64,000 nucleotides of DNA, from NCBI RefSeq assembly GCF_003018235.1, contig NZ_CP027437.1, one strand, 5' to 3'. Within the stretch, counting starts at the first letter, position 1. Each line of letters opens with the position of its first letter. The translations under genes and the position numbers were made by a program. The DNA comes from Escherichia coli. GTDB lineage: Bacteria; Pseudomonadota; Gammaproteobacteria; Enterobacterales; Enterobacteriaceae. The notes below the pieces were generated by a model that had not been told where the DNA came from, searched no databases, and saw only the letters and a list, made by a program, of their open reading frames with translations. This document shows positions 3,701 to 22,326 of the stretch, one piece after another.

Positions 3701-4304
3701 GCTGAAAACCGACATCAACAACCTGAATGATGCGCCGATCTTCCTCGATATCGACGATGAAGTGGTGAGCGTAAAATCGTTGTACGGTGATTACGACACG
3801 CCGCAGGATTTCCTCGAAGCCTTTGACTCGCTGGTGCAACGTTCCCCGAACGCACAGCCGGCATTGCAGGCGGTGATCAATCGCCCGCGCGATCTCACCC
3901 GTAAAGGGCTGGTCGAACTCCAGGAGTGGTTTGACCGCCAGCACTTTGAGGAATCTTCCCTGCGCAAAGCGTGGAAAGAGACGCGTAATGAAGATATTGC
4001 CGCCCGGCTGATTGGTCATATTCGCCGTGCTGCGGTAGGCGATGCGCTGAAACCGTTTGAGGAACGTGTCGATCACGCGCTGACGCGCATCAAGGGCGAA
4101 AACGACTGGAGCAGCGAGCAATTAAGCTGGCTCGATCGTTTAGCGCAGGCGCTGAAAGAGAAAGTGGTGCTCGACGACGATGTCTTCAAAACCGGCAACT
4201 TCCACCGTCGCGGCGGGAAGGCGATGCTGCAAAGAACCTTTGACGATAATCTCGACAACCTGCTCGATAAATTCAGCGATTATATCTGGGACGAGCTGGC
4301 CTGA
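792..4304 (+). CDS. hsdR: Type I restriction enzyme R subunit (HsdR), type IA family
   Basis: ORF 738..4304; likely true start at the MMNKSNFEFLKG methionines (792); DEAD-box helicase motifs (AMATGTGKT, VVDEAH); followed by hsdM and hsdS. Confidence 0.95.
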   Translation: MMNKSNFEFLKGVNDFTYAIACAAENNYPDDPNTTLIKMRMFGEATAKHLGLLLNIPPCENQHDLLRELGKIAFVDDNILSVFHKLRRIGNQAVHEYHNDLDDAQMCLRLGFRLAVWYYRLVTKDYDFPVPVFVLPERGENLYHQEVLTLKQQLEQQAREKAQTQAEVEAQQQKLVALNGYIAILEGKQQETEAQTQARLAALEAQLAEKNAELAKQTEQERKAYHKEITDQAIKRALNLSEEESRFLIDAQLRKAGWQADSKTLRFSKGARPEPGVNKAIAEWPTGKDETGNQGFADYVLFVGLKPIAVVEAKRKNIDVPGKLNESYRYSKCFDNGFLRETLLEHYSPDEVHEAVPEYETSWQDTSGQQRFKIPFCYSTNGREYRAAMKTKSGIWYRDVRDTRNMSKALPEWHRPEELLEMLGSEPQKQNQWFADNPGMSELGLRYYQEDAVRAVEKAIVKGQQEILLAMATGTGKTRTAIAMMFRLIQSQRFKRILFLVDRRSLGEQALGAFEDTRINGDTFNSIFDIKGLTDKFPEDSTKIHVATVQSLVKRTLQSDEPMPVARYDCIVVDEAHRGYILDKEQTEGELQFRSQLDYVSAYRRILDHFDAVKIALTATPALHTVQIFGEPVYRYTYRTAVIDGFLIDQDPPIQITTRNAQEGVYLSKGEQVERISPQGEVINDTLEDDQDFEVADFNRGLVIPAFNRAVCNELTNYLDPTGSQKTLVFCVTNAHADMVVEELRTAFKKKYPQLEHDAIIKITGDADKDARKVQTMITRFNKERLPNIVVTVDLLTTGVDIPSICNIVFLRKVRSRILYEQMKGRATRLCPEVNKTSFKIFDCVDIYSTLESVDTMRPVVVRPKVELQTLVNEITDSETYKITEADGRSFAEHSHEQLVAKLQRIIGLATFNRDRSETIDKQVRRLDELCQDAAGVNFNGFASRLREKGPHWSAEVFNKLPGFIARLEKLKTDINNLNDAPIFLDIDDEVVSVKSLYGDYDTPQDFLEAFDSLVQRSPNAQPALQAVINRPRDLTRKGLVELQEWFDRQHFEESSLRKAWKETRNEDIAARLIGHIRRAAVGDALKPFEERVDHALTRIKGENDWSSEQLSWLDRLAQALKEKVVLDDDVFKTGNFHRRGGKAMLQRTFDDNLDNLLDKFSDYIWDELA

Positions 4305-4505: not shown

Positions 4506-6095
4506 ATGAACAATAACGATCTGGTCGCGAAGCTGTGGAAGCTGTGCGACAACCTGCGCGATGGCGGCGTTTCCTATCAAAACTACGTCAATGAACTCGC
4601 CTCGCTGCTGTTTTTGAAAATGTGTAAAGAGACCGGGCAGGAAGCGGAATACCTGCCGGAAGGTTACCGCTGGGATGACCTGAAATCCCGCATCGGCCAG
4701 GAGCAGTTGCAGTTCTACCGAAAAATGCTCGTGCATTTAGGCGAAGATGACAAAAAGCTGGTACAGGCAGTTTTTCATAATGTTAGTACCACCATCACCG
4801 AGCCGAAACAAATAACCGCACTGGTCAGCAATATGGATTCACTGGACTGGTACAACGGCGCGCACGGTAAGTCGCGCGATGACTTCGGCGATATGTACGA
4901 AGGGCTGCTGCAGAAGAACGCCAACGAAACCAAGTCTGGTGCAGGCCAGTACTTCACCCCGCGTCCGCTGATTAAAACCATTATTCATCTGCTGAAACCG
5001 CAGCCACGTGAAGTGGTACAGGACCCGGCAGCGGGTACGGCGGGCTTTTTGATTGAAGCCGACCGCTACGTTAAGTCGCAGACCAATGATCTGGACGACC
5101 TTGATGGCGACACGCAGGATTTCCAAATCCACCGCGCGTTTATCGGCCTCGAACTGGTGCCCGGCACCCGTCGTCTGGCGCTGATGAACTGCCTGCTGCA
5201 CGATATTGAAGGCAACCTCGACCACGGCGGCGCAATCCGTCTGGGCAACACTCTGGGTAGCGACGGTGAAAACCTGCCGAAGGCGCATATTGTCGCCACT
5301 AACCCGCCGTTTGGCAGCGCCGCAGGCACCAACATTACCCGCACCTTTGTTCACCCGACCAGCAACAAACAGTTGTGCTTTATGCAGCATATTATTGAAA
5401 CGCTGCATCCCGGCGGTCGTGCGGCGGTGGTTGTGCCGGATAACGTGCTGTTTGAAGGCGGCAAAGGCACCGACATTCGTCGTGACCTGATGGATAAGTG
5501 TCATCTGCACACCATTCTGCGTCTGCCGACCGGTATTTTTTACGCTCAGGGCGTGAAGACCAACGTGCTGTTCTTTACCAAAGGGACGGTGGCGAACCCG
5601 AATCAGGATAAGAACTGTACCGATGATGTGTGGGTGTATGACCTGCGTACCAATATGCCGAGTTTCGGCAAGCGCACGCCGTTTACCGACGAGCATTTGC
5701 AGCCGTTTGAGCGCGTGTATGGCGAAGACCCGCACGGTTTAAGCCCGCGTACTGAAGGAGAATGGAGTTTTAACGCCGAAGAGACGGAAGTTGCCGACAG
5801 CGAAGAGAACAAAAATACCGATCAGCATCTTGCTACCAGCCGCTGGCGCAAGTTCAGCCGTGAGTGGATCCGCACCGCGAAATCCGATTCGCTGGATATC
5901 TCCTGGCTGAAAGATAAAGACAGTATTGATGCCGACAACCTGCCGGAGCCGGATGTGTTAGCGGCAGAAGCGATGGGCGAACTGGTACAGGCGCTGTCTG
6001 AACTGGATGCGCTGATGCGTGAACTGGGGGCGAGCGATGAGGCGGATGCGCAGCGCCAGTTGCTGGAAGAAGCATTTGGTGGGGTGAAGGAATGA
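4506..6095 (+). CDS. hsdM: Type I restriction-modification N6-adenine DNA methyltransferase M subunit (HsdM)
   Basis: 529-aa ORF with the NPPF catalytic motif (ATNPPFGSA) and an AdoMet-binding region; stop overlaps the hsdS start (ATGA). Confidence 0.95.
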   Translation: MNNNDLVAKLWKLCDNLRDGGVSYQNYVNELASLLFLKMCKETGQEAEYLPEGYRWDDLKSRIGQEQLQFYRKMLVHLGEDDKKLVQAVFHNVSTTITEPKQITALVSNMDSLDWYNGAHGKSRDDFGDMYEGLLQKNANETKSGAGQYFTPRPLIKTIIHLLKPQPREVVQDPAAGTAGFLIEADRYVKSQTNDLDDLDGDTQDFQIHRAFIGLELVPGTRRLALMNCLLHDIEGNLDHGGAIRLGNTLGSDGENLPKAHIVATNPPFGSAAGTNITRTFVHPTSNKQLCFMQHIIETLHPGGRAAVVVPDNVLFEGGKGTDIRRDLMDKCHLHTILRLPTGIFYAQGVKTNVLFFTKGTVANPNQDKNCTDDVWVYDLRTNMPSFGKRTPFTDEHLQPFERVYGEDPHGLSPRTEGEWSFNAEETEVADSEENKNTDQHLATSRWRKFSREWIRTAKSDSLDISWLKDKDSIDADNLPEPDVLAAEAMGELVQALSELDALMRELGASDEADAQRQLLEEAFGGVKE

Positions 6096-7459
6096 GTGCT
6101 GGGAAATTGCCGGAGGGGTGGGAACAGATTGAAATAGGCGACATTGCTGATGTCATCTCTGGTGGGACACCAAAATCGGGAGTCGCTGAAAATTTTGCAC
6201 CTTCGGGTGAGGGAGTCGCCTGGCTTACGCCTGCCGATTTGAGCGGTTATAAAGAGAAATATATCTCACATGGTGCCAGAGATTTAACTACACTAGGCTA
6301 TTCCTCTTGTTCAGCAAAACTAATGCCCAAAGGCACTATACTTTTTAGTAGCCGGGCACCGATTGGATATGTTGCTATTGCTGCAAATGAGATTGCGACT
6401 AACCAGGGTTTCAAAAGTTTTGCTTTTCCTTCAGACATTTTTCCTGATTATGCATATTACTTTCTCCGCAACATCAGACATATTGCAGAGGAAATGGGCA
6501 CAGGAACAACTTTTAAAGAAATTTCTGGTAGTTCTGCGAAAACATTACCATTTGTTCTTGTACCGTTTGCCGAACAAAAAATCATCGCTGAAAAACTCGA
6601 TACGCTGCTGGCACAGGTAGACAGCACCAAAGCACGTCTTGAGCAAATCCCACAAATCCTGAAACGTTTTCGTCAGGCGGTTCTGGGTGCAGCGGTGAGA
6701 GGAAAACTAACTGAAGACTGGAGAGATAATTCAAGCCTGTCTGGGTGGAGAGAAGGCAAACTTGGGGAGTTTATAAAAAAACCAAGTTACGGAACGTCAT
6801 CTAAGTCTAATAAAGAAGGACTCATTCCTGTATTAAGAATGGGCAATCTTCAGGGAGGAAAGTTGGACTGGACGGATCTAGTCTATACGTCAGATACCAT
6901 AGAAATTGAAAAGTATAAACTTGAGTACAATGATGTATTATTCAATCGTACAAATAGTCCTGAACTTGTCGGGAAAACAGCCATATATAAATCAGAGCAA
7001 CCAGCTATTTATGCAGGTTATTTGATTAGGGTTCAATGTTTACCTGATTTAAACCCTGACTATCTTAACTACCATTTAAATAGCATTTTGGGGAGACAAT
7101 ATTGCTATTCAGTTAAATCTGATGGGGTCAGTCAATCAAATATTAATGCACAGAAATTAATTGCATACCCAATAACTGTTCCCCCCCTTCCCGAACAAGC
7201 TGAAATCGTTCGCCGCGTCGAGCAACTCTTCGCCTACGCCGACACAATAGAAAAACAGGTCAACAACGCCTTAGCCCGCGTCAACAATCTGACGCAATCC
7301 ATCCTGGCAAAAGCGTTCCGTGGTGAACTCACCGCCCAGTGGCGGGCCGAAAACCCGGAATTAATCAGCGGTGAAAACAGCGCCGCCGCGTTGCTGGAGA
7401 AAATCAAAGCTGAACGCGCAGCCAGCGGGGGTAAAAAAGCCTCGCGTAAAAAGTCCTGA
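6092..7459 (+). CDS. hsdS: Type I restriction-modification specificity subunit (HsdS) with two variable target-recognition domains
   Basis: 455-aa ORF; conserved N-terminus MSAGKLPEGW, central block AEQKIIAEKLDTLLAQVDSTKAR and C-terminal block EQAEIVRRVEQLFAYADTIEKQVNNALARVNNLTQSILAKAFRGELTAQWRAEN are typical of type IA HsdS; the two intervening domains are AT-rich and divergent. Confidence 0.93.
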   Translation: MSAGKLPEGWEQIEIGDIADVISGGTPKSGVAENFAPSGEGVAWLTPADLSGYKEKYISHGARDLTTLGYSSCSAKLMPKGTILFSSRAPIGYVAIAANEIATNQGFKSFAFPSDIFPDYAYYFLRNIRHIAEEMGTGTTFKEISGSSAKTLPFVLVPFAEQKIIAEKLDTLLAQVDSTKARLEQIPQILKRFRQAVLGAAVRGKLTEDWRDNSSLSGWREGKLGEFIKKPSYGTSSKSNKEGLIPVLRMGNLQGGKLDWTDLVYTSDTIEIEKYKLEYNDVLFNRTNSPELVGKTAIYKSEQPAIYAGYLIRVQCLPDLNPDYLNYHLNSILGRQYCYSVKSDGVSQSNINAQKLIAYPITVPPLPEQAEIVRRVEQLFAYADTIEKQVNNALARVNNLTQSILAKAFRGELTAQWRAENPELISGENSAAALLEKIKAERAASGGKKASRKKS

Positions 7460-8029: not shown

Positions 8030-8190
8030 CAGCGTTTACTCCCGGTTAACCACCGGGAGCTTTCCACTGACTCAATAGAAACTTTCCCCCTCAGTAAATA
8101 TTTACCTGCCTGATTGTGCAGTAAAAATCTATTGTTTCAGTACGTTGCGAAAGCGATAATAGAGGCTTAGCAATGAGGAAGGCACATCTT

Positions 8191-9570
8191 ATGGAATCAA
8201 TTCAAGCCTGGATTGAAAAATTTATTGAGCAAGCACAGCAACAAAGTTCACAATCCACTAAAGATTATCCAACGTCTTACCGTAACCTGCGAGTAAAAGT
8301 GAGTTTCGGTTATGGCAATTTTACATCTATTCCCTGGTTTGCATTTCTTGGAGAAGGTCAGGAAGTTTCTAACGGTATATATCCCGTTATTCTCTATTAT
8401 AAAGATTTTGATGAGTTGGTTTTGGCTTATGGTATAAGTGACACGAATAAACCACATGCCCAATGGCACTTTTCTTCTGACATACCTAAAACAATCGCAG
8501 AGTATTTCCAGGCAACTTCAGGTGTATATCCTAAAAAATACGGACAGTCCTATTACGCCTGTTCCCAAAAAGTCTCACAGGGTCTTGATTATACCCGGCT
8601 TGCCTCCATGCTGGACAACATAATCAACGACTATAAATTAATATTTAATTCTGGCAAGAGTGTTATTCCACCTATGTCAAAAACTGAATCATACTGTCTG
8701 GAAGATGCGTTAAATGATTTGTTTATCCCTGAAACCACAATAGAGACGATACTCAAACGATTAACCATCAAAAAAAATATTATCCTCCAGGGGCCGCCCG
8801 GCGTTGGAAAAACCTTTGTTGCACGCCGTCTGGCTTACTTGCTGACAGGAGAAAAGGCTCCGCAACGCGTCAATATGGTTCAGTTCCATCAATCTTATAG
8901 CTATGAGGATTTTATACAGGGCTATCGTCCGAATGGCGTCGGCTTCCGACGTAAAGACGGCATATTTTACAATTTTTGTCAGCAAGCTAAAGAGCAGCCA
9001 GAGAAAAAGTATATTTTTATTATAGATGAAATCAATCGTGCCAATCTCAGTAAAGTATTTGGCGAAGTGATGATGTTAATGGAACATGATAAACGAGGTG
9101 AAAACTGGTCTGTTCCCCTAACCTACTCCGAAAACGATGAAGAACGATTCTATGTCCCGGAGAATGTTTATATCATCGGTTTAATGAATACTGCCGATCG
9201 CTCTCTGGCCGTTGTTGACTATGCCCTACGCAGACGATTTTCTTTCATAGATATTGAGCCAGGTTTTGATACACCACAGTTCCGGAATTTTTTACTGAAT
9301 AAAAAAGCAGAACCTTCATTTGTTGAGTCTTTATGCCAAAAAATGAACGAGTTAAACCAGGAAATCAGCAAAGAGGCCACTATCCTTGGGAAAGGATTCC
9401 GCATTGGGCATAGTTACTTCTGCTGTGGGTTGGAAGATGGCACCTCTCCGGATACGCAATGGCTTAATGAAATTGTGATGACGGATATCGCCCCTTTACT
9501 CGAAGAATATTTCTTTGATGACCCCTATAAACAACAGAAATGGACCAACAAATTATTAGGGGACTCATAG
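8191..9570 (+). CDS. mcrB: McrB, GTP-dependent 5-methylcytosine-specific restriction enzyme subunit B (AAA+ GTPase)
   Basis: ORF 8173..9570; start MESIQAWIEKF at 8191 preceded by AGGAAGG; Walker A LQGPPGVGKTF; 459 aa. Confidence 0.93.
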   Translation: MESIQAWIEKFIEQAQQQSSQSTKDYPTSYRNLRVKVSFGYGNFTSIPWFAFLGEGQEVSNGIYPVILYYKDFDELVLAYGISDTNKPHAQWHFSSDIPKTIAEYFQATSGVYPKKYGQSYYACSQKVSQGLDYTRLASMLDNIINDYKLIFNSGKSVIPPMSKTESYCLEDALNDLFIPETTIETILKRLTIKKNIILQGPPGVGKTFVARRLAYLLTGEKAPQRVNMVQFHQSYSYEDFIQGYRPNGVGFRRKDGIFYNFCQQAKEQPEKKYIFIIDEINRANLSKVFGEVMMLMEHDKRGENWSVPLTYSENDEERFYVPENVYIIGLMNTADRSLAVVDYALRRRFSFIDIEPGFDTPQFRNFLLNKKAEPSFVESLCQKMNELNQEISKEATILGKGFRIGHSYFCCGLEDGTSPDTQWLNEIVMTDIAPLLEEYFFDDPYKQQKWTNKLLGDS

Positions 9571-10616
9571 TGGAACAGCCCGTGATACCTGTCCGTAATA
9601 TCTATTACATGCTTACCTATGCATGGGGTTATTTACAGGAAATTAAGCAGGCAAACCTTGAAGCCATACCCGGTAACAATCTTCTTGATATCCTGGGGTA
9701 TGTATTAAATAAAGGGGTTTTACAGCTTTCACGCCGAGGGCTTGAGCTTGATTACAATCCTAATACCGAGATCATTCCTGGCATCAAAGGGCGAATAGAG
9801 TTTGCTAAAACAATACGCGGCTTCCATCTTAATCATGGGAAAACCGTCAGTACTTTTGATATGCTTAATGAAGACACGCTGGCTAACCGAATTATAAAAA
9901 GCACATTAGCCATATTAATTAAGCATGAAAAGTTAAATTCAACTATCAGAGATGAAGCTCGTTCACTTTATAGAAAATTACCGGGCATTAGCACTCTTCA
10001 TTTAACTCCGAAGCATTTCAGCTATCTGAACGGCGGAAAAAATACGCGTTATTATAAATTCGTTATCAGTGTCTGCAAGTTCATCGTCAATAATTCTATT
10101 CCAGGTCAAAACAAAGGACATTATCGTTTCTATGAATTTGAAAGAAATGAAAAAGAGATGTCATTACTTTATCAAAATTTTCTTTTTGAATTTTGCCGTC
10201 GTGAATTACCATCTGTAAATACAACTCGCCCACATTTAAAATGGGATGCATCAAGCATATCGGATCAATCACTTAGCTTGTTACCTCGAATGGAAACTGA
10301 CATCACCATTAACTCATCAGGGAAAATACTTATCGTTGATGCCAAATACTATAAAAGCATTTTTTCACGACGAATGGGTACAGAAAAGTTTCATTCTCAA
10401 AATCTATATCAACTGATGAGTTACTTATGGTCGTTAAAGCCTGAAAATGGCGAAAAAACAGGGGGGTTATTAATATACCCACACGTAGACACCTCAGTGA
10501 AACATCGTTATAAAATTAATGGCTTCGATATTGGCTTGTGTACCGTCAATTTAGGTCAGGAATGGCCGTGTATACATCAAGAATTACTCGACATTTTCGG
10601 TGAATATCTCAAATAA
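9570..10616 (+). CDS. mcrC: McrC, nuclease subunit of the McrBC restriction system
   Basis: ORF 9540..10616; probable GTG start at 9570 (VEQPVIPVRNIYYMLTYAWGYLQ) overlapping the mcrB stop by 1 nt; 348 aa. Confidence 0.9.
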   Translation: MEQPVIPVRNIYYMLTYAWGYLQEIKQANLEAIPGNNLLDILGYVLNKGVLQLSRRGLELDYNPNTEIIPGIKGRIEFAKTIRGFHLNHGKTVSTFDMLNEDTLANRIIKSTLAILIKHEKLNSTIRDEARSLYRKLPGISTLHLTPKHFSYLNGGKNTRYYKFVISVCKFIVNNSIPGQNKGHYRFYEFERNEKEMSLLYQNFLFEFCRRELPSVNTTRPHLKWDASSISDQSLSLLPRMETDITINSSGKILIVDAKYYKSIFSRRMGTEKFHSQNLYQLMSYLWSLKPENGEKTGGLLIYPHVDTSVKHRYKINGFDIGLCTVNLGQEWPCIHQELLDIFGEYLK

Positions 10617-10638
10617 GCGGTAAGTTTTATAGAAAATA

Positions 10639-10665
10639 CCGCTCCCGACACCACATCGGGAGCGG
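10639..10665. terminator. Bidirectional intrinsic terminator hairpin between the convergent mcrC and large helicase genes
   Basis: Inverted repeat CCGCTCCCGA-CACCACA-TCGGGAGCGG, GC-rich stem, in the 56-bp gap between two convergent stop codons. Confidence 0.55.
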
Positions 10666-10672
10666 CTCATCA

Positions 10673-13600
10673 TCAGGAGGCGATCACCTCCACCAGCACA
10701 TCCGTTGCCCAACTCTCTTCGCTGTTGGCGACATTCCCTTCCTTGCAGGCCTGAGCCATTTTGACTAACTGGAAAGAAACGTCATCGCGGAAATCAAAGT
10801 AATGCCATTGCGATGCAAAGTTGATGCGCCAGTAGCCCATCCCCTGATCGAAGCGGATCTTCAATACCTGACCATCATCAAAAGTCACCGTCAGTTTACG
10901 ATGGTGAGGGATATCGCGCGGCGAGTCGAACACCGTCAGTTCTACCGGCCTGCCCAGCGCAGCAGCAAACCACTGATCAGCGAAATCCTGAAAATCCGCT
11001 ATGCTCATCCAGTCATGGAAAGGCCGGTTACCGGGGCGATCTTTATCTTTAAATAGCGTATCCAGCGTCACTTCAGCGCCATCGGTCAGCTTTGTTTTTA
11101 GCGGTCTCAAAATTGATCCCAACAACGCCAGCGCAACCGGGTTTTGCAGATAGCGATCGGTATAGTGAACGCCGGTAATTCGCGTGTTATTCATCAGTGA
11201 CTGCGCTTCTTCATGGTCGTTAAACAGCACGTCCCAGAAGCGTTGCCCAAACTGCGACAGTGGTCCATTCAACTGTTTGTGGATCTGAATGTCTTTGACC
11301 CGCTCGACAGCGTTGGCGGCTTTAGCCGGCAGAATAAATTCGTTCAGCTCTACCGTTTTATAGCCGAGACTACGTACCACCAGTTCGTCATTCAGGTGCC
11401 ACTCCGGCCCCGGAATCGTTGCCTGCTGGCTACGAGAGGCCAGCGTCATCACGCGATCGGCAAAGGTGACCTGAGCAACGATCGGTAATTTCAAATCCTG
11501 TTCAACATGGCATAGCCGCACACCCAGCGCAGTAAATTGCGATAGTTCGTGCAACAGGTCCGGGTCATCCACTCCCGCAGGAATAACAAGATCGACCTCG
11601 ACGTTGTCTTTTAGCCGATAGTTCTGAACCGCCGCGCGGAACTGACGTGCGTATAAATCCCACTCATTGGGCGCGCCGGTCATCCACAGGGTGAGCTTTT
11701 CAGCGCCTTCGTTAATCGCCCGGCGAATCGTATCGCCAATGGCGCCAGGGCAGTAGCGGGCATCCGGCAGCGAGAATGTCTCTTCATCCGGTAAACCGAT
11801 GTAATACGTGAAGTCATCGCCAAGCCAGGCCAGCGCCGCTTTGCGATCCAGCAAATCGTGATCGTGGCGAGTCTGGGAATCAAGCAGGCATTCACTACAT
11901 GCAGTCTCACAATGGCGGCAGCCTAACTGTTTCACCATTCCCTGCAATATAGCTTCAATGTGTACCGGTGCGCTGGAGGCAAAACCTGCACCACCGCTGA
12001 TCACATCATAAAGCTGTACGGCTAATACCGATTGCCCATCCTCCAGTCTGACCGGACGTACAGAATAGCCGAGTTCTGCGGCGGAGATACCCAGAACGCC
12101 CGCCAGCGCCTGACGCAGAGCAACCGCCAGAGTCATGGCAACAATCCGCCCCTCCTCTGTGTTATCTGGCAGATACTCGCCGTTTTGCGGTTTGCGCAGA
12201 ATCATTTCAAAGACATCGGTGCGCGCCAGTGCGCCCAGGGTGACGTTCTTCATGAGTGCCGTCGAACCGGGGCAAATCAGACGATGATTCTGGCTGTCGC
12301 GATCCGCTTTACCCGGACGCGGTGGATAGTGAGCTTCCATGCTTTTCGGCGCATCATTTTCATTCAGCATCGACTCAGCACGGCCACAGCTCAGACACAA
12401 TGCATAACCGTGTCCACCTTCCCCCAAACTTTGCTGGAAAACATGCCCATCAGCCCCAGAAGCCATATAACCCATTAGCGGGTTAGGCAACGGTACGGGC
12501 TCTGCTTTAACAAAGACCCACGCGGGGACAACCGGGACGAATTTCATGGTTTCAATATTGTTCGTTACCGGAGCGTGTGCATCGGTGACAAACCCGGCAG
12601 GCTGCAGCACCTGACGGCGATTATCCATGATTATTTTTTCGCCGCAGGCGCTATTGGAGCAAAAGAGCATCCCGGAACTGCTCATCCCCTCTTCATAGCC
12701 AATGGTCCCGCATTTGTGACAGCGCCAGGCGCAATCCAGACGCTGGGCTTCATTGGTATCAGCATTAATGTTGTGCCAGTGCAGTGAGACACCGGCAGAG
12801 CGGAAGACACGGCCATCAAGAATGATCTCTGCTCCCGGTGCATATTCACGAATGGCAACACCGAGGTTACGGGAAGGTAATCCTTTATAACGGGAGACGT
12901 TATCTTCACGGTCCTTTTTATCACGACTTTTTTGCGATTTTTCGCGGATATAATCTTCCATTGTGAAGTTATCAAACGTCACTACATCTGTCGGGAAACC
13001 GTATCCCGGCAAGAAGGTTCTGGCAGCTAGATCGCGCAGCAGATACTCGCCACAGTGCCGTTTCTTCTCCAGCTCTATGCGCTTACGATAAGGCGTTTGC
13101 GGCTGCGACTCACGCTCCTGTGTCACGAGATCGCGATAAACGGAGAGCCACCGCTGCTGCAGGAAGGTGATCGCGTTGATTGTTTTATCCCGCAGATATT
13201 CGGCTCTTGCACCATGCAACGCCGTACCTTTCACCAGCCGTTCCAGCGCCGTGTCGATATCAAGAACAGGGCGTTCCAGCCAGACTTTGAAGCGTTCGCA
13301 TTTTGACTGCCCGTCATCTTCACCGAAAAACCAGAGGCTATCGAGGCTGGTTTTCTCTTTATCGGTTTCGCCAATAACGTTACATAAAAAGTCGGACAGT
13401 AATAATGCATTGACGTGACGTTGCACCAGTCGGGCGGAGTTCATCGCGACCATGGGTGCCGGGATCATGGTTTCAAATGGCCAGAGCGGGTTGGCAAAAA
13501 CCTGCTGGTCGTGTGGGTTACCTTTACATAGGGTGTAAGAGATCGCACGTGATTCTTTACTACGCCCGGCTCGCCCGGCGCGCTGTAAATAGTTGGCCGG

Positions 13601-16600
13601 ATGTGGCGGTACGTTGTTCATTACCACCGCAGTAATGCCCCCGATATCAACCCCCATTTCCATGGTGGTGGAACAGTTGAGAACATTTAGTTGCCCATTC
13701 TTGAACATCTTTTCATAGCTTTGCAGACGTTCTGACGACTGCTGGGCAGAGTGCTCGGCAGTGCGATAGTAGAAACCGCCTTCCACGACACGATCGTTGA
13801 TGTCTGTCCAGACGTTTTCCGACCGCAATTGTGCGATCAGCGGATCATTGCTGACCCAGTCGCGTGCTTTTGCCAGACCCTCTGCGTAGTCTTCCTGTGA
13901 ACGATCCAGCTTCCAGATTTCCGGCATGGTGACTTTCTGCGCGACAAAAGTGTCATATTGCGCCTGGGTAAGATGCTCGAACGAAATATGGGTAGGCAGA
14001 TAAGGGGTTAAGCCTTTAAAAGCCGTATCCAGGATTTTATTGGTTACCGGGCAAATCCAGGCATCCGTGATTAATGAAAAAGTCATATGCTCTTTCGGTA
14101 AATAAAAACGGTTGCCATCGGGTTTCAGTACTGCAAGCGGTCCGGTAAGTTGGGCCCATGCTTCTTTCAGCCATGTATTGATAATATCAATAGTCGCCGT
14201 ATTGACGGTTTTGAATCCAGCCCCCAGCATCAGTAACTTCGCTAAACGATGGGATACGTTGCCATTACGAATTTGAGGCCAGCGTCTGTTCTGATTATCT
14301 TCAGGATCTTTTGATTCCGGGTTACGGACGAATTTTGATGAAAAACGGCTACCGATCCAGTTTTTCAGCTCATCATCCAGCTGTGTGAAGTTGCTCTCAC
14401 GAACGTAATGATCCAGCGTAACTTTGAGAAAATCGCGCCAGTCATCCAGCGTTAATCCTTTTTCCTGCCAGTGCAGAGGGATCTTATGTATTTTCTCCAG
14501 CCCCAGGTAACCAACCTGAACCAGCCCTTGTGTTTCCAGGCTGTTAGTCCGTTTAGGGCGACGCATGAATTCCCGGAATAACAACATTTCCGAAAGCTTT
14601 AGAGGCCCGCCGTTTTCATTAAACACTTCAGGCTTAAGATAATGGTTATATTGCAGAACCGGGCCACGGATATCGGCTCTCTCTTTAAGCTCGTTAACCA
14701 TTTCTGTCCAGGTTCGGGATACCAGAGTAATTGCAGCTTTTCCACCGATTGCAGACTGGTAAGCCTGTTCAAGCTGCTCGGCCTGCGCTTCTGATAATTT
14801 CGCTTGATCCGGCAATCCCCAGCTTCGATATTCTTCTGCCTGCTCACGGGCTTGCTTTACCCTGGTCGCTAATTTTTCCAGATCGGCATTAGCGTTCGGC
14901 GCCGTGGGCGTTTGCGTTCGTTGATGCCAGCTCAGAATTTCGACTACGCTTCCGCGTAAGCGACTACGTTCTGCTTCTTGCTGCATACGCACCGCCATCC
15001 GGGCTGTCCCTTGTCGACTATCCGTAAAGGTAATGAGTCGACGTCCTCGCCCTGGCAACGAATCTGGTCCGACGCCCTCTTTGCCTTCATCACTGGCAAA
15101 GTCCTGACAATACTCAAGAACGGTGGGAACGATATTAGTAACGTAAAATGGCCCACCTAATAGTGCACGCCGGAAGGGCTGTTTCCCGCTCATGCCTCTG
15201 AAGCCACAGCCGCTGGCGCTACAAACCTGTTCAATATCATTAATAATCAGCGGAATGCTGTCATTATTAATAACGCCAATACGGCGCGTCTGACGGTCGA
15301 GGCGTTGTAGGGTATAGCCTGTCTCGCTGGTCTCTCCTGCGGCAATAATCAACGGAGGCTGGAAACCGTTCTCTTTTTCGACTTTTTCCTCTGTAGTGTC
15401 ATGTTCAACAGGTACTTCATCCTGCAAGGAGAACTCATCGCCACCTTTATTTTCCCATTGGACAAGTTTGCCCTTTTTGTCCTGCGCCAGAAGATGAGGC
15501 TCATTACAATCATTACAGAACGCCACTTCGTAGACAGGGCTTCCACAGTCGCAATTTTGTCGCTGGTTCACATACACATAGCCAAAGGGCCAGCCTTTTT
15601 CGAGCGGTGTACCGTGCTTTAATCTGCAATCTTTATCAACACAAGCCCATATTCCCTGGGTATTACGCTGGAAGATATGCGCCCTGACTTTAAGAAATGC
15701 GGGATCCTTTGCATTAGGTTGAGTCCCTGAACAGACATCGATCCAACGCAGTACTTCCTGCTGGCTGTAATGCTGTTTTGTCAGCGCATTTAACCGCTGC
15801 GTCATCTCATCCAGTTTCATTGGATTAGGTTGGCTAACCAACATTTCACGTATGTAACGCGCTTCGGGGGAGTGCGTAAGCGCATAAAAGCGCTCAGGAC
15901 TTATCCCTTTAATTTTATTATCATTTTTATCTTTTAGATCCAGATCAGGTATTTGCTCTATTTCGTCTAACGGAACAGAAACGTTTTTGGATGGTTCCAG
16001 TTCAGGAATCACCCGACTTCCGTCCAGAACATCGATGCGCTCCTGCGGGATACCGGATAATTCAGAGAGAAATTTTTTCAGCTGCTTTTCAGCGTCGCTG
16101 CCGGCAATGGTCGCAGAGGTCGCTACAAAGCGCACGTCATCTGGTGTCACGCCAAACGCTGTCATCACACGACGCAGCTGGAGCGCCAGTTCAGCGGCCT
16201 GCGACCCGACATAGGTATGCGCTTCATCCAGTACAATCCAGCGTAGTGATTTTTGTGCTTTAGATTGCTGGATAATCGGGGCGTCGACCTGGCGAACCAT
16301 CATATATTCCAGCATCGTGCCGTTGGTCACCAGAATCGGCGCAGGTTCTTCACGCATTTTTTCGCGCGAGAGCACCTCATTCGGCCTTTTTGCCTGTTCA
16401 CTTTTTACCGAAGCGTGTAGGTTTTCGGTGTTGCCGTTGTAAAGGCAGTAGCGAATCCCAGTACCAAAACCACGCGTCCAGGCATCCAGACGCTCGCGCT
16501 GTGAATTAATCAAGGCGTTCAATGGATAGAGAAAAAGGGCTCGGACACCAACCAACGGATTGTTGCCATTTTCATGCAGTTCCCGGTAAAGATCTTCCAG

Positions 16601-17017
16601 CACCGGAACCATAAAACATTCCGTTTTACCTGAACCCGTACCACTGGTTACCACCACTGAATGTTTCTTTTCCAGCAAAGCTTTCCAACTGGCTAACTGG
16701 TGTGTAAAAGGCTTCCAGTCAGCACCAAATCGGTACCGGCCATTACTCTGATTATCCAGTGAATCAACCACTGCTTTGCTCAACAATGCGTTGCCTTCCG
16801 TCAGGCTGCGCATCGTGTGATTTGACTCCTTCCATCCAAACATTTGCTGGAATACCGGAGAAGCAAGGAATGAGCCCGGTTTCCCACAATCAGCCCCCAT
16901 TTGTTGCGCGAGATGTTCACGCAGCTGCGGGTTGGTAACGCCCATGATACTGAGCGTTGCTTCAGTTGAACGAGACAACGATTGTTCAATAAGTGACGAA
17001 AAATAGCGTGTAGTCAT
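10673..17017 (-). CDS. Very large DEAD/DEAH-box helicase with C-terminal cysteine-cluster (DUF1998/MrfA-like Zn-ribbon) region; DruE-like (Druantia) defence protein
   Basis: Intact 2114-aa ORF; Walker [17 protein letters not shown] box [11 protein letters not shown] motif, helicase-C motif QRAGRAGR, cysteine clusters (CHKCG...CSNSACG; CLSCG; [11 protein letters not shown]); good RBS AAGGAATAAGG before the ATG; 87 bp downstream of the partner gene. Confidence 0.75.
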
Positions 17018-17104
17018 CCTTATTCCTTTTTATTTTTTAGCAACATAACGCAACAGGCTGCACTGAAAGATGGTCTTAAACCAGCGGGAATCGAAGTCCC
17101 TGAC

Positions 17105-18823
17105 TTACCTCAGGAAAAATACGGCACCGGGTTTACGGTCAAATACAGCTTCAAAAGAAGTATTTCCGCTTGCCACAGCTGCAGCGAAGACGGGTAACCA
17201 GGCCACGGAATAGCGGTGATTTGCGTCAGGATTAATACCAATCACTGGATTTTTTTGTGACATCATCCATTTATACAGACGCTTGCAGCCATATTCAGGC
17301 CAGCGAGCTTCACTGTGCTCACGTAAAAGCTCCTGATACCACCCGTGGACACAAGATTCAGGAATAGACGGAGGGAGATATCCGTTACTTAACCATTTCT
17401 CAATTTCATCGGCATATGTCGGGAACACGAGCCCCAGCCGTTGAAACATATTAGTAACCAGTAATTTCTGGGTTTCCTCCGGTGCACCTTTTTGGCTCAG
17501 GAACAATTTGAAACGCTCAGATGCAGCTTTGATCTCAAAGATGGGGAAAAACTCCCATAGAATAGGGAACTCATTCTCAATACGACTCAGGTACTCTGCT
17601 GACATTTCAAATTTGAAGAGCGACATCGCCAATGCCTGCGGATGCTGCACTAGTGCACGCCATACTTCAAAGGTTGCCAGCGGTAAATAACCAAATTGAT
17701 CGTACAGGCTACGCATAAATTGCCAGCCGGAATGGGCAGGATCGTTAGCCATCTGTCCGAGAACCAGTGTGATGGTATTAACTTCTGCCTGTGGATTAAA
17801 AAGCTGGGTCGCTTTCTGCAATGAGCGGATGTTGCTTTCTTCTACCGGTAACGAAGATTCGCCACGAATGAAGCAGGGGCGAAAAGCCATCTCCTCACCC
17901 GGTTTAGGAACAACCAACCATGGCCCATTTTTGTTAACGATTGAGCTCAACTCATATTCACCGACAGGCACTCCCTCGCTCATTCTTGATGCTAAGGGGA
18001 TGGATTTCCTCTCGGGTTCACTTAACAGCATGATAACGGGGGAAGGAATCTGCCCAGCACGATGGTTCACTGACTGGCTGAGTAATAGTTCTTTTTCATA
18101 ATCATAGCGCAGGCTGTATTTATAGCGACGAATTTGCCAGGCCATGACCACACCTGCCCCCGTAATACGCATCTCAACAACCTGATCAATACCTGCCTCA
18201 AGTGAAATCAGGTTCTCAATATGTTCGCGCAGACTATAGAGATTCAATTCAACAGGACGATCGCTCAACGCCGTATAACACCATTCATGCCATGCCTGTA
18301 ATCCACTAACGGAGCGCAAATACAACTGCAATGTATATTTTGTCGGCTCACCATTTCTGGAGAACAGAAACGCTCTGGAACCCAGCAGATCATGCAGCGT
18401 AATGTTTTTATCCAGAGGACGTCCGTTTACATCAAGAGCGAGACAGCCTTTAGCGGGAAAAGGTAACTCAATGTCGATGGGGTCAGCCGCCAAATTAGGC
18501 AGAACTTGTAATGTAATAAATGCCGGAGGTACCCCTTCCGCTTTAAGTTGTATCTCTGTTCGCCCCTCAGTACGCTTACGTGTAGCCTCCAATGTTTTAT
18601 CTTTAAGTTTTGCTACACAAGGATGCTGTGTGGTGATTAAGATAGTGCCTTCATTTGCGTGCATTCCACCTTTTATCTCAATACTGAAATCAGCAGGCAA
18701 GATACCGATTTTGCGACGCAAGAGCGTTTCATTGTTACTATTACGGATAGAAAGATATTGAGCCCCCAGCATCTCTTGTATATGACATTGCTCAATTGAA
18801 ATTCCGCTCAGGTAACGCGTTAC
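17105..18823 (-). pseudogene. C-terminal fragment of the DruH-like partner gene, separated from its 5' part by IS100
   Basis: The 582-aa ORF 17105..18853 begins with a GTG inside the IS inverted repeat; native sequence starts at 18823; frame is continuous with fragment 20778..21943 once the IS and one GTTAC copy are removed. Confidence 0.75.
18819..18823. repeat. Target-site duplication (GTTAC), left copy
   Basis: Identical 5-bp GTTAC immediately flanks both ends of the 1954-bp element. Confidence 0.75.
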
Positions 18824-20777
<1,954 letters not shown>

Positions 20778-20782
20778 GTTAC
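20778..20782. repeat. Target-site duplication (GTTAC), right copy
   Basis: See left copy. Confidence 0.75.
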
Positions 20783-21943
20783 ATCAATGCTTTGAATATC
20801 CGGTAGTGTAGAAATGACTTTTGGTACACCAATAAATGTTTCATCTGGATGACAAACCCAGCTTGCACGCTTTCCATTTAGAGCAAACCTTCCGATGCTG
20901 ATTTGTTCTCTTCCGGTGCGAATCCGATAAGTTTCATTTGCTGTAACTGTAACGTCCTGACATCCCTTCACAGGTAGTGCTTTTAGTCCTAATACGTTTA
21001 CTGCGCTCGATTGGCCATCAAAACCAGCAACATTGCTATTATCCCGAGGGAGTACAATCAGAACATCGCTGCTTCGCACACTGCAAGAAGCCTGTCCCTG
21101 TAACAGCCATTGATCTGCATCAACGATGAAGGTTAACGGCACCTCACCAATGGCAATTTCACTGTCATCAAGTTTAATGCTCCCAACAATCATCCCTCCA
21201 GCACGAGCCACTAATGACAAACCTGCCGATGGATTTTGCCTGACAAATCTCACTTCGCTTTTACGTAATCGAACTGTTGCCTGTCTGTTTTCCAGGGAAG
21301 CATAGGCTGGCCCAAGGCCAGAGACTTCCTCACCATCTTCACAAATGGCAAGTTCAAAGCGCGTAGTTGACGGCTCGCTTGTTACAGGAAAGGAAACTTC
21401 GTCCGGAAGAGATACTATCACCCTAAGCTCATCTGGATGCTTTTCTGACCAATAGAATTGGCAACGCGTACTCTTATTTTTTTGTAGTCGAGGCTTAGCC
21501 TCTACAGAGGCTGCGCATAGCAGTCCATTCAAAAAATGCGTTCCTGTTTCATCATCTAACGGTATTGGAAACTCGCTTCGCCAGGTAGGGTGAACCTTCT
21601 CAAGCTGTTGTACTGGTTCTTTGTGATTTATTAGGTTGTGAGTAAGTACTAAGGAATTGAGGTTATCAGCCATATGACTGATAAGTTCTACAGAGGTATC
21701 TTCGCTAAAAACAGTTGGCAGCGCTGATTTTTCTATGACAGCTCTTGCCAGCGAAAGGGCAGAAAAACCTGACTGCTTTGCTTGCTCATATTGTCCAAGG
21801 ATCCTGGAGAAAACAGCCAGAAAGCGACTGTCTGATTCTTTGAGTAGCCGGAAAGGTAAACCACCTTCACTGAATAATGTTCCGAGAAAATTGCGTCGTT
21901 CAGATTCATAAAATCGAATTGGGCGCAGCCAGTAATCTTCCAT
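20778..21943 (-). pseudogene. N-terminal fragment of the DruH-like partner gene, interrupted by IS100
   Basis: The 393-aa ORF 20762..21943 ends in a stop supplied by the IS end; the reconstructed junction reads ...TLPDIQSIDV|TRYLSGISIEQ... in frame. Confidence 0.75.
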
Positions 21944-21990
21944 CCCTTTCGGTACGATAGTACCAAGCTCTGTGGCGGTGAATGAAATCC

Positions 21991-22326
21991 CTATTTTTTA
22001 TATATAGGGTCCCACGTCCATCCGCATTGCCGTTCATAATCCCTGCGGTACCACTCAGAGCAAAAAAGAACAAAACAGGCAGCAAAGTCCCTATTACATA
22101 TATTAGATTGTGATTGACCGACCGCACGGAGTAGCTGCGTTAATTGGGTATATTCATCATTGGTTGCATGATATTCATAAAGAGGACGGCCATCCGGTTG
22201 TCTCAACCCTCTAAGATTCACAAAGTTACTTAGCCAGGAAGTACATTTTACCCATGAAATGTATTCTGATTGACCCAAAGCAAGCTCCTTAGAGATAAAA
22301 GATACAAAAACAAAACCCCACAACAC
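21991..22326 (-). other. Open frame immediately upstream of the DruH-like gene; possible frameshifted N-terminal extension, or non-coding
   Basis: 111 codons open with no ATG (GTG start only); ends at TAG inside TATATAAAAAATAGGG; the downstream frame opens 2 codons earlier, so a 1-nt change in the A6 tract would fuse them. Confidence 0.3.

What the first reader, a model, noticed from the sequence alone, without database searches (positions are those of the whole stretch)
21975..22030. Possible second lesion in the DruH-like gene: frame change at an A6 tract inside a small inverted repeat
A 111-codon open frame with no ATG ends at TAG within TATATAAAAAATAGGG. The downstream frame containing the ATG at 21943 opens only 2 codons earlier (after a TAA). 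One extra A in the A6 run would fuse them into one longer ORF. The tract is bracketed by CCCTAT...ATAGGG inverted repeats. This could be a genuine frameshift, a homopolymer sequencing error, or simply non-coding leader with the true start at 21943.
Basis: seen in the sequence. Interest (0 to 1): 0.4.

Follow-up and report, generated by a model that had tools for sequence, protein, structure and literature searches.

The report
One-base frameshift in dead druH/yjiT
The anti-phage gene yjiT (DruH of a type III Druantia system) has lost one A from a run of seven, which breaks its reading frame; it is one of three separate lesions in a gene that is dead in this E. coli lineage, so the finding is correct but ordinary.

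Summary
On the minus strand, an ORF ends at a TAG (21993-21991) just after an A6 run (21999-21994). The next frame opens two codons earlier, and one extra A would fuse the two.

Intact E. coli orthologues (yjiT, 1096 aa) start at the TTG at 22278 and carry A7 at this site. Family profiles (PADLOC DruH3, NCBIfam YjiT_fam) and a solved DruH structure align straight across the junction. The upstream frame is therefore the real N-terminus, not a leader sequence.

A sequencing error is unlikely:
- Two independent public read-set assemblies reproduce A6 together with the same IS junction.
- All 26 neighbouring genes checked are intact.

The gene carries three lesions:
- the A7→A6 frameshift after codon 95;
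- a 1954-bp IS100-like insertion (18824-20777, 5-bp duplication);
- a CAA→TAA nonsense at codon 1072 (17107-17105), which was probably not noticed before.

With all three repaired, the protein is identical to a common intact YjiT. The partner helicase DruE (10673-17017) is intact but orphaned.

A6 recurs on three different yjiT alleles but is rare (1 of 615 complete genomes). This fits sporadic slippage rather than a switch. The flanking inverted repeat is unremarkable.

The parts
21991..22278 (-). yjiT/druH N-terminal fragment. TTG start at 22278-22276 with AAGGAG upstream, 95 codons, then the premature TAG at 21993-21991.
   Evidence: PGAP start in intact orthologues maps to 22278. The 111-aa ORF hits Pfam YjiT_N. 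PADLOC and NCBIfam profiles cover these residues.
21994..21999 (-). A6 homopolymer run (A7 in intact orthologues): the -1 frameshift site, after codon K95.
   Evidence: Alignment with WP2-S18-ESBL-07 and MG1655. Of 615 genomes, 614 are not identical over the 84-nt tract query, and all 59 sampled span one extra base.
21989..22009 (.). 6-bp inverted repeat CCCTAT/ATAGGG bracketing the run. Judged to be a chance feature of coding sequence (D-P-I-Y-K-K-I-G).
   Evidence: 236 comparable repeats in the window. Fold z-scores of -2.2 and -3.0. The sequence is invariant in orthologues, so covariation cannot be tested.
20778..21997 (-). yjiT/druH middle fragment in the -1 frame, codons 96 to about 501 of the intact gene. 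The first ATG, at 21943, is codon 113. The ORF runs on into the IS end and stops at 20762.
   Evidence: BLAST to MEI003 yjiT nt 1-1502 with 0 mismatches and 1 gap. tblastn with WEC YjiT.
18824..20777 (+). IS21-family (IS100-like) insertion of 1954 bp: istA 18910-19932, istB 19929-20711, imperfect terminal inverted repeats, and a 5-bp target duplication GTAAC (minus strand) at 20782-20778 and 18823-18819.
   Evidence: istB is annotated 'IS21-like element IS100kyp family helper ATPase' in matching records.
17105..18823 (-). yjiT/druH C-terminal fragment, ending at a nonsense codon TAA (17107-17105) where orthologues have CAA (Gln1072). It removes the last 25 residues.
   Evidence: Alignment with WP2, MEI003 and MS6198. 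It is the only substitution relative to MEI003 yjiT.
17030..17104 (-). Untranslated remnant of the yjiT 3' end, up to the original TAA stop at 17032-17030.
10673..17017 (-). druE, the type III Druantia helicase-nuclease partner: 2114 aa, intact.
   Evidence: PADLOC DruE3 PDLC00037, residues 1-2110 against profile 1-2053 of 2055. A single full-length tblastn match without stops.

Best explanation
The site is a genuine, inherited one-base deletion (A7 to A6) in the coding sequence of yjiT. YjiT is the DruH component of a two-gene type III Druantia anti-phage system (druH-druE) in the E. coli immigration control region. The most likely cause is slipped-strand mispairing during replication of the run (inferred). 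Translation from the real TTG start (22278) now stops at a TAG after 95 codons. Restarting at the ATG at 21943 would give a protein lacking residues 1-112. The break falls inside the N-terminal region that published mutagenesis shows to be essential for defence, so this lesion alone should abolish DruH function (inferred from homology). It is one of three independent lesions in the same gene, the others being an IS100-like insertion at codon ~501 and a nonsense codon at 1072. The gene is therefore a decaying pseudogene, and the intact DruE is left without its partner. The order of the three events is unknown.
For: Sequence and orthologues:
- Searches show the sequence as described.
- two orthologues have A7 in an otherwise identical context.
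- among 615 complete E. coli genomes with this segment, only MS6198 matches the A6 sequence exactly. All 59 others sampled across the ranking span one extra base.
- intact yjiT is a single 1096-1097-aa CDS starting at the TTG.

Family and structure:
- the repaired protein matches DruH3 over residues 1-1071 (1780 bits) and YjiT_fam from residue 15 (1230 bits, cut-off 150).
- Pfam YjiT_N hits both the 111-aa ORF and the 393-aa ORF, so the domain is split between them.
- PDB 9tud_A (DruH) aligns across the junction.
- Residues whose alanine substitution abolished defence in PMC13192584 map to both sides of the break. F69, E75, R78/R79 and W88 lie upstream. Y114/W115, L129, T131/L132 and G136/G137 lie downstream.
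- Deleting the N-terminal globular domain (10.64898/2026.05.12.722862) or all of druH (10.64898/2026.05.13.724758) abolishes defence.

Not an error:
- contigs from SRR7691681 and SRR18191694 match the window with 0-1 mismatches and no gaps over 4.2 kb, including A6 and 30 nt of the IS end.
- about 16 contigs carry the exact 393-aa product.
- in 46 kb aligned to strain WEC, this is the only frame-breaking indel.
- 26 of 27 syntenic genes are full length without stops; only yjiT is broken.

Three lesions:
- define the IS insertion and the nonsense codon.
- the fully repaired protein exists exactly, on 601 contigs, named protein YjiT.
Against: - No raw reads were examined, so a systematic platform artefact cannot be strictly excluded.
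- The same tract is under-called technically in error-prone public K-12 read sets, which show 0 mismatches and only homopolymer deletions.
- Only 2 of the roughly 16 contigs were read directly at the tract.
- The functional consequence is inferred from a distant DruH homologue from ECOR19. Only the N-terminal ~250 residues align by sequence (E = 3.7e-22), and the immigration-control-region YjiT-DruE pair itself was not shown here to defend against phage.
- No intermediate alleles of this lineage were found, so the order of the lesions is unknown.
Confidence: 0.87

Rival explanations
1. Homopolymer sequencing or assembly error: the strain really has A7, and the missing base is an under-call.
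For: - A 6-7-base run is the classic site for such errors.
- Public K-12 read-set assemblies (L008-L010, L012, L014-L017) show this tract as A6 with 0 substitutions relative to MG1655, and their only other differences are further homopolymer deletions.
- The only complete genome sharing A6 is MS6198.
Against: - Two independent SRA assemblies of the same lineage give A6, with no other indel over 4.2 kb.
- About 16 contigs carry the truncated product rather than a long one.
- The window shows only two homopolymer-length differences from WEC in 46 kb, the other being intergenic, and no broken neighbouring gene.
- The second A7 tract of yjiT, which is hit in the error-prone runs, is intact here.
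- Good-quality 37-78-kb contigs of other lineages also carry A6.
Confidence: 0.08
2. There is no lesion: the gene truly starts at the ATG at 21943, and the upstream open frame is an untranslated leader.
For: PGAP annotated exactly such a truncated CDS (984 aa, 'STY4851/ECs_5259 family protein') in MS6198, which has the same A6.
Against: - Intact orthologues encode the upstream frame as residues 1-95.
- Family HMMs and the solved DruH structure cover it.
- Essential residues F69, E75, R78/R79 and W88 lie in it (PMC13192584).
- There is an AAGGAG Shine-Dalgarno sequence 6 nt before the TTG at 22278.
Confidence: 0.01
3. The run is a functional switch or recoding site. Either it is a phase-variable tract that turns Druantia III on and off, or the A6-TAG context is read through by -1 ribosomal or transcriptional slippage, which would recreate the wild-type ...YKKIGIS... 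protein.
For: - A6 has arisen on three different yjiT DNA alleles, each with a near-identical A7 partner. The window pairs with MEI003 (1 nt apart), L018-L020 with L021 (0-2 nt), and MS6198/L011 form the third, K-12-like allele, 51-55 nt from the other two.
- A -1 slip of tRNA-Lys on AAA AAA before a stop codon would restore the exact wild-type sequence (read from the sequence; the mechanism is an inference from the dnaX and IS-element precedents).
- The run sits in the loop of a predicted hairpin.
Against: - The wild-type state is in frame, so nothing is programmed.
- A7 is short for a contingency tract.
- Only 1 of 615 complete genomes is 'off' at this site, and no A8 was seen in the 59 sampled.
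- The many K-12 derivatives, where the gene is already a pseudogene, still keep A7.
- In this genome the IS and the nonsense codon make any read-through pointless.
Confidence: 0.04

Closest known systems
DruH of type III Druantia (YjiT family; NCBIfam NF038336, PADLOC DruH3 PDLC00049; solved structure PDB 9tud)
   Same: The repaired protein gives a full-length match to DruH3 and YjiT_fam. The gene lies directly upstream of druE on the same strand, 12 nt apart in intact orthologues. The conserved N-terminal residues that are essential in ECOR19 DruH are present.
   Different: Here the gene is broken three times. This immigration-control-region subfamily is distant from the experimentally studied ECOR19/ATCC8739/EDL933 DruH: only about 250 N-terminal residues align by phmmer.
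E. coli K-12 yjiT'/'yjiV pseudogene pair
   Same: It occupies the same chromosomal locus (yjiS-yjiT-...-mcrCB), is the same gene, and is also a dead Druantia III remnant.
   Different: K-12 lost the system through an internal deletion that joins a truncated yjiT to a truncated helicase, and it retains A7. The window keeps all the sequence and an intact druE but carries a frameshift, an IS and a nonsense codon.
Slipped-strand frameshifts in homopolymer runs, as seen in pseudogene formation and, at longer tracts, in contingency loci
   Same: There is a one-base length change in a mononucleotide run, and it recurs independently on several alleles.
   Different: The run is short (7), the variant is rare (1 of 615), and there is no evidence of reversible switching.
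-1 frameshifting on A-rich slippery sites (dnaX A AAA AAG; IS element transposases)
   Same: An AAA AAA run decoded by tRNA-Lys, followed by a slowly decoded codon (the stop), with a nearby hairpin. A -1 slip would restore the native protein.
   Different: The native gene is in frame, so this would be only an accidental leak. Nothing here tests it.

Membership tests
Type III Druantia (DruH-DruE) | DruH-family protein (YjiT family) | tested here: met
   The repaired protein matches PADLOC DruH3 PDLC00049 at E = 0, 1780 bits, over residues 1-1071 of profile positions 1-1074/1100. It matches NCBIfam YjiT_fam at 1230 bits against a cut-off of 150. As encoded in the window, it is split into three fragments.
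Type III Druantia (DruH-DruE) | Adjacent large DruE helicase on the same strand, immediately downstream | tested here: met
   The ORF 10673-17017 (-) of 2114 aa matches DruE3 PDLC00037 at 2697 bits, full length. It starts 12 nt after the original yjiT stop.
Type III Druantia (DruH-DruE) | No DruA-D (type I) or DruM/F/G (type II) partners | tested here: met
   The neighbours are yjiS and yjiR upstream and mcrC and mcrB downstream. No other Dru model matched the two proteins better than the type III models. The neighbours themselves were not scanned against PADLOC.
Type III Druantia (DruH-DruE) | Confers phage defence that requires both proteins | not testable with these tools
   Shown for other E. 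coli type III systems (10.64898/2026.05.13.724758; PMC13192584). Not shown for this subfamily here. In this genome druH is disrupted.
Phase-variable contingency locus | Tract length varies at appreciable frequency among close relatives | tested here: not met
   1 of 615 complete genomes has A6, and all 59 sampled others have one extra base. The many K-12 derivatives keep A7.
Phase-variable contingency locus | On and off lengths coexist within one clone | not testable with these tools
   This needs read-level data.
Programmed -1 ribosomal frameshift | The native, conserved gene arrangement requires a frame change at the site | tested here: not met
   Intact orthologues are a single in-frame ORF through A7.
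IS21 family (IS100-like) | About 2 kb element with istA and istB, terminal inverted repeats and a short target duplication | tested here: met
   The element is 1954 bp, with a 340-aa and a 260-aa ORF, TGTCA...GTGATCCAC termini and a 5-bp GTAAC duplication. Matching records annotate IS100kyp-family IstB at 95-99% identity.

The most novel reading that the evidence does not exclude
The A7 run near the 5' end of yjiT/druH is a mutational hot spot that selection exploits repeatedly. On this reading it works as a low-frequency, potentially reversible off-switch for Druantia III. This would let lineages shed a defence that hinders uptake of useful mobile DNA, with a residual leak through -1 slippage at AAA AAA TAG. 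The evidence is that A6 arose independently on at least three yjiT alleles, each with a near-identical A7 partner.
Probability: 0.05. Interest if true: 0.5.

Novelty: already known. Interest (0 to 1): 0.15.

Why it matters
It matters mainly for annotation. The 111-codon and 393-codon ORFs and the 582-codon ORF beyond the IS are fragments of one druH/yjiT pseudogene and should not be called as separate genes. PGAP has already called a truncated 'STY4851/ECs_5259 family protein' in MS6198, which carries the same A6.

Any inventory of defence systems should score this genome as Druantia III-negative despite its intact DruE.

More broadly, the locus adds to a pattern of repeated inactivation of the immigration-control-region Druantia III in E. 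coli:
- the K-12 deletion;
- IS1 and IS3 insertions in yjiT, and an IS30 in druE, in other strains;
- recurrent A7→A6.

That pattern may interest people studying the cost and turnover of defence systems.

Tried and rejected
- **Pfam scan.** The local library returned nothing for the repaired protein or the fragments. It lacks the newer YjiT_N and YjiT_2nd models, so I relied on the precomputed Pfam hits.
- **Same IS junction elsewhere.** I looked for a complete RefSeq E. coli genome with the same IS100-yjiT junction and found none. The best overall identity to the window's flank is only 98.4%, so the source strain is not in that collection.
- **Order of the lesions.** I looked up exact hypothetical intermediates: A7+IS, A7+TAA, A6+TAA without the IS, and the C-terminal fragment with CAA. 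None is on record. The 'A6 only' product that does exist belongs to a different DNA allele, 16-18 nt away, so it is not an ancestor.
- **Support from the 111-aa ORF.** I first took the 32-38 public contigs carrying this ORF as support for A6. Most turned out to be K-12 read sets with homopolymer-only deletions, meaning technical under-calls. I rejected them as evidence.
- **Inverted repeat as a functional element.** I rejected this on frequency and modest fold scores. Covariation cannot be tested because the orthologues are identical here.
- **Selection for inactivation.** All three changes on this lineage's yjiT branch are disruptive. From rough published mutation and IS-insertion rates (my own estimate, not computed with the tools), about a third of neutral events in a 3.3-kb dead gene would be disruptive. 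The pattern is therefore not significant.

Full report
**1. The observation**

The gene lies on the minus strand. The sequence there reads ...TGG GAC CCT ATA TAT AAA AAA TAG GGA TTT....
- The 111-codon ORF (22326..21991, from a GTG, with no internal ATG) stops at the TAG at 21993-21991, immediately after an A6 run at 21999-21994.
- The frame holding the ATG at 21943 opens after the TAA at 22000-21998.
- One extra A gives ...Y-K-K-I-G-I-S-F-T-A-T-E-L-G-T-I-V-P-K-G-M-E-D-Y-W..., a single continuous frame.
- The arms CCCTAT and ATAGGG flank the run.

**2. What the gene is**

DNA searches against complete E. coli genomes identify the region as yjiT. In strains with an intact copy, such as WP2-S18-ESBL-07 and MEI003, yjiT is a single CDS of 1096-1097 aa. 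It is followed 12 nt later by a ~2113-aa DEAD/DEAH helicase gene and lies between yjiS and mcrCB.

I repaired the window's copy in silico.
- The repaired protein matches PADLOC DruH3 (PDLC00049) over residues 1-1071 at 1780 bits.
- It matches NCBIfam YjiT_fam at 1230 bits against a cut-off of 150.
- The downstream ORF (10673-17017, 2114 aa) matches DruE3 over its full length at 2697 bits.

The locus is therefore a type III Druantia druH-druE pair in the immigration control region, and 'DruH-like' is right.

**3. The frameshift compared with orthologues**

A 400-nt alignment of the window with WP2-S18-ESBL-07 and K-12 MG1655 is identical around the site, except that both orthologues have A7.
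- PGAP's start in intact orthologues maps to the TTG at 22278, which has AAGGAG 6 nt upstream. The upstream frame therefore encodes residues 1-95 of the native protein.
- Of 615 complete genomes carrying the segment, only MS6198 matches the A6 sequence exactly.
- All 59 other records sampled evenly down the ranking span one extra base.

The window thus carries a rare -1 deletion relative to the normal A7 state.

**4. Real mutation or sequencing error?**

Evidence that the deletion is real:
- The exact 393-aa product (ATG 21943 to the stop inside the IS) is on record in about 16 contigs, including a 5.01-Mb NCBI chromosome.
- Two Logan assemblies of independent runs, SRR7691681 and SRR18191694, match the window with 0-1 mismatches and no gaps over 4.2 kb. 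The match includes A6 and 30 nt of the IS end.
- Against strain WEC, which is about 98% identical over 46 kb, the tract is the only frame-breaking indel. The only other homopolymer-length difference is intergenic.
- Of 27 syntenic genes, 26 are full length without stops. Only yjiT is broken.

Evidence on the other side:
- The tract is clearly prone to technical under-calling. Several public K-12 read-set assemblies show it as A6 with zero substitutions relative to MG1655, and their only other differences are further homopolymer deletions.

I put the probability of a real, inherited deletion at about 0.87-0.9. Read pile-ups would settle it.

**5. Three lesions, not two**

Alignment to MEI003 yjiT shows the following:
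- nt 1-1502 match with 0 mismatches and one gap, which is the A tract.
- A 1954-bp IS21-family (IS100-like) element lies at 18824-20777. It has istA and istB, imperfect terminal repeats and a 5-bp GTAAC target duplication.
- nt 1498-3294 match with one mismatch and a 3-nt polymorphism that other strains share.

That single mismatch is C→T, turning CAA (Gln1072) into TAA at 17107-17105 and removing the last 25 residues.

Repairing all three lesions gives a 1096-aa protein that exists exactly in public data on 601 contigs, named protein YjiT. This validates the reconstruction.

No intermediate allele of this lineage was found, so the order of events is unknown.

**6. Expected consequence**

Three 2026 studies bear on this.
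- Both DruH and DruE are needed for defence (10.64898/2026.05.13.724758).
- Deleting the N-terminal globular domain of DruH abolishes defence (10.64898/2026.05.12.722862).
- An N-terminal surface spanning roughly residues 63-137 is essential (PMC13192584).

The solved DruH chain 9tud_A carries exactly the residues named in that mutagenesis. It aligns with the repaired window protein across the junction (query 14-266, E = 3.7e-22).

Mapping the loss-of-function positions gives this split:
- F69, E75, R78/R79 and W88 fall in the 95-aa fragment.
- Y114/W115, L129, T131/L132 and G136/G137 fall after the break.

The frameshift therefore cuts the essential region in two. A restart at M113 would lack half of it.

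This step is inference from a distant homologue. The immigration-control-region subfamily has not been tested here.

**7. Mechanism and recurrence**

Slipped-strand mispairing in the run is the simplest cause.

A6 occurs on three different yjiT DNA alleles:
- the window's allele, which differs from the A7 allele of MEI003 by 1 nt;
- the L018/L019/L020 allele, which differs from the A7 allele of L021 by 0-2 nt;
- the MS6198/L011 allele, which is K-12-like and 51-55 nt from the other two.

The change has therefore happened repeatedly. Even so, it stays rare, and the many K-12 derivatives keep A7. I read this as sporadic loss-of-function mutation, not a switch.

A -1 slip of tRNA-Lys on AAA AAA before the TAG would recreate the native protein sequence. 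This is untested, and it is moot here because of the IS and the nonsense codon.

**8. The inverted repeat**

Perfect 6-bp repeats with short loops occur 236 times in the window. The extended hairpin is only modestly better than shuffled sequence, with z = -2.2 and -3.0. The arms are simply the codons for D-P-I and I-G. I see no reason to give the repeat a role.

**9. Verdict**

The feature is an ordinary pseudogenising frameshift in a known defence gene, and one of three lesions. Its value is in annotation and in defence-system inventories, not in new biology.

Noticed in passing
window 17105-17107 (minus strand): A third lesion in yjiT/druH that the finding does not mention. A CAA→TAA nonsense at codon 1072 of 1096 is the only substitution relative to the MEI003 allele, and it leaves an 88-nt untranslated gap before druE.
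   Followed up: yes
L004 (MEI003) 12129-19696; hits H102-H107, H110, H20, H21; L002 (K-12) 8121-12562: The Druantia III pair at this locus is inactivated in many other E. coli strains by different routes. These are IS30 in druE (MEI003), IS3 or IS1 in yjiT (TC24, AREA_C483, 1218KP, 500111, WP2-S18-ESBL-08 and others) and an internal deletion fusing truncated yjiT to truncated druE (yjiV) in K-12.
   Followed up: partly
L008-L017 (Logan assemblies of K-12-like and MS6198-like read sets): Several public read-set assemblies differ from MG1655 or MS6198 only by one-base deletions in homopolymer runs (A7 at two or three sites in yjiT, A6, T6, C5). This is a signature of platform under-calling and creates spurious split ORFs in the protein collections.
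   Followed up: partly
L003 (MS6198, NZ_CP015834.1) 12128-15082: PGAP annotates an N-terminally truncated 984-aa 'STY4851/ECs_5259 family protein' from the ATG equivalent to 21943, because this genome also has A6. The CDS is not flagged as a pseudogene.
   Followed up: yes
window 6092-7459 (hsdS) and 7501: The type I restriction specificity subunit is only 37.5% identical to that of strain WEC, while hsdR and hsdM are over 99% identical. This points to a different target specificity. A one-base T-run length difference lies in the intergenic region just downstream.
   Followed up: no
window 36047-41287: The inverse autotransporter gene iatD is an intact 1746-codon ORF here, whereas it is annotated as a pseudogene (internal stop) in the related strain WEC.
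   Followed up: no
window 31367-33481: The pentapeptide-repeat protein gene differs from WEC by an in-frame 24-nt repeat-unit indel near 33190 and is only 94% identical. An 11-nt intergenic insertion follows at 33528.
   Followed up: no
L018-L020, positions ~4030-4215: In three other lineages that carry the A6 allele, mdtM is absent between yjiN and the rpn-family gene. The window and WEC both have it.
   Followed up: no
Listing of cluster members output: The 90% clusters returned for the yjiT fragments contain unrelated proteins (MalF with the 393-aa fragment, DruE helicases with the 582-aa and 984-aa fragments). Cluster membership there is not a guide to homology.
   Followed up: no
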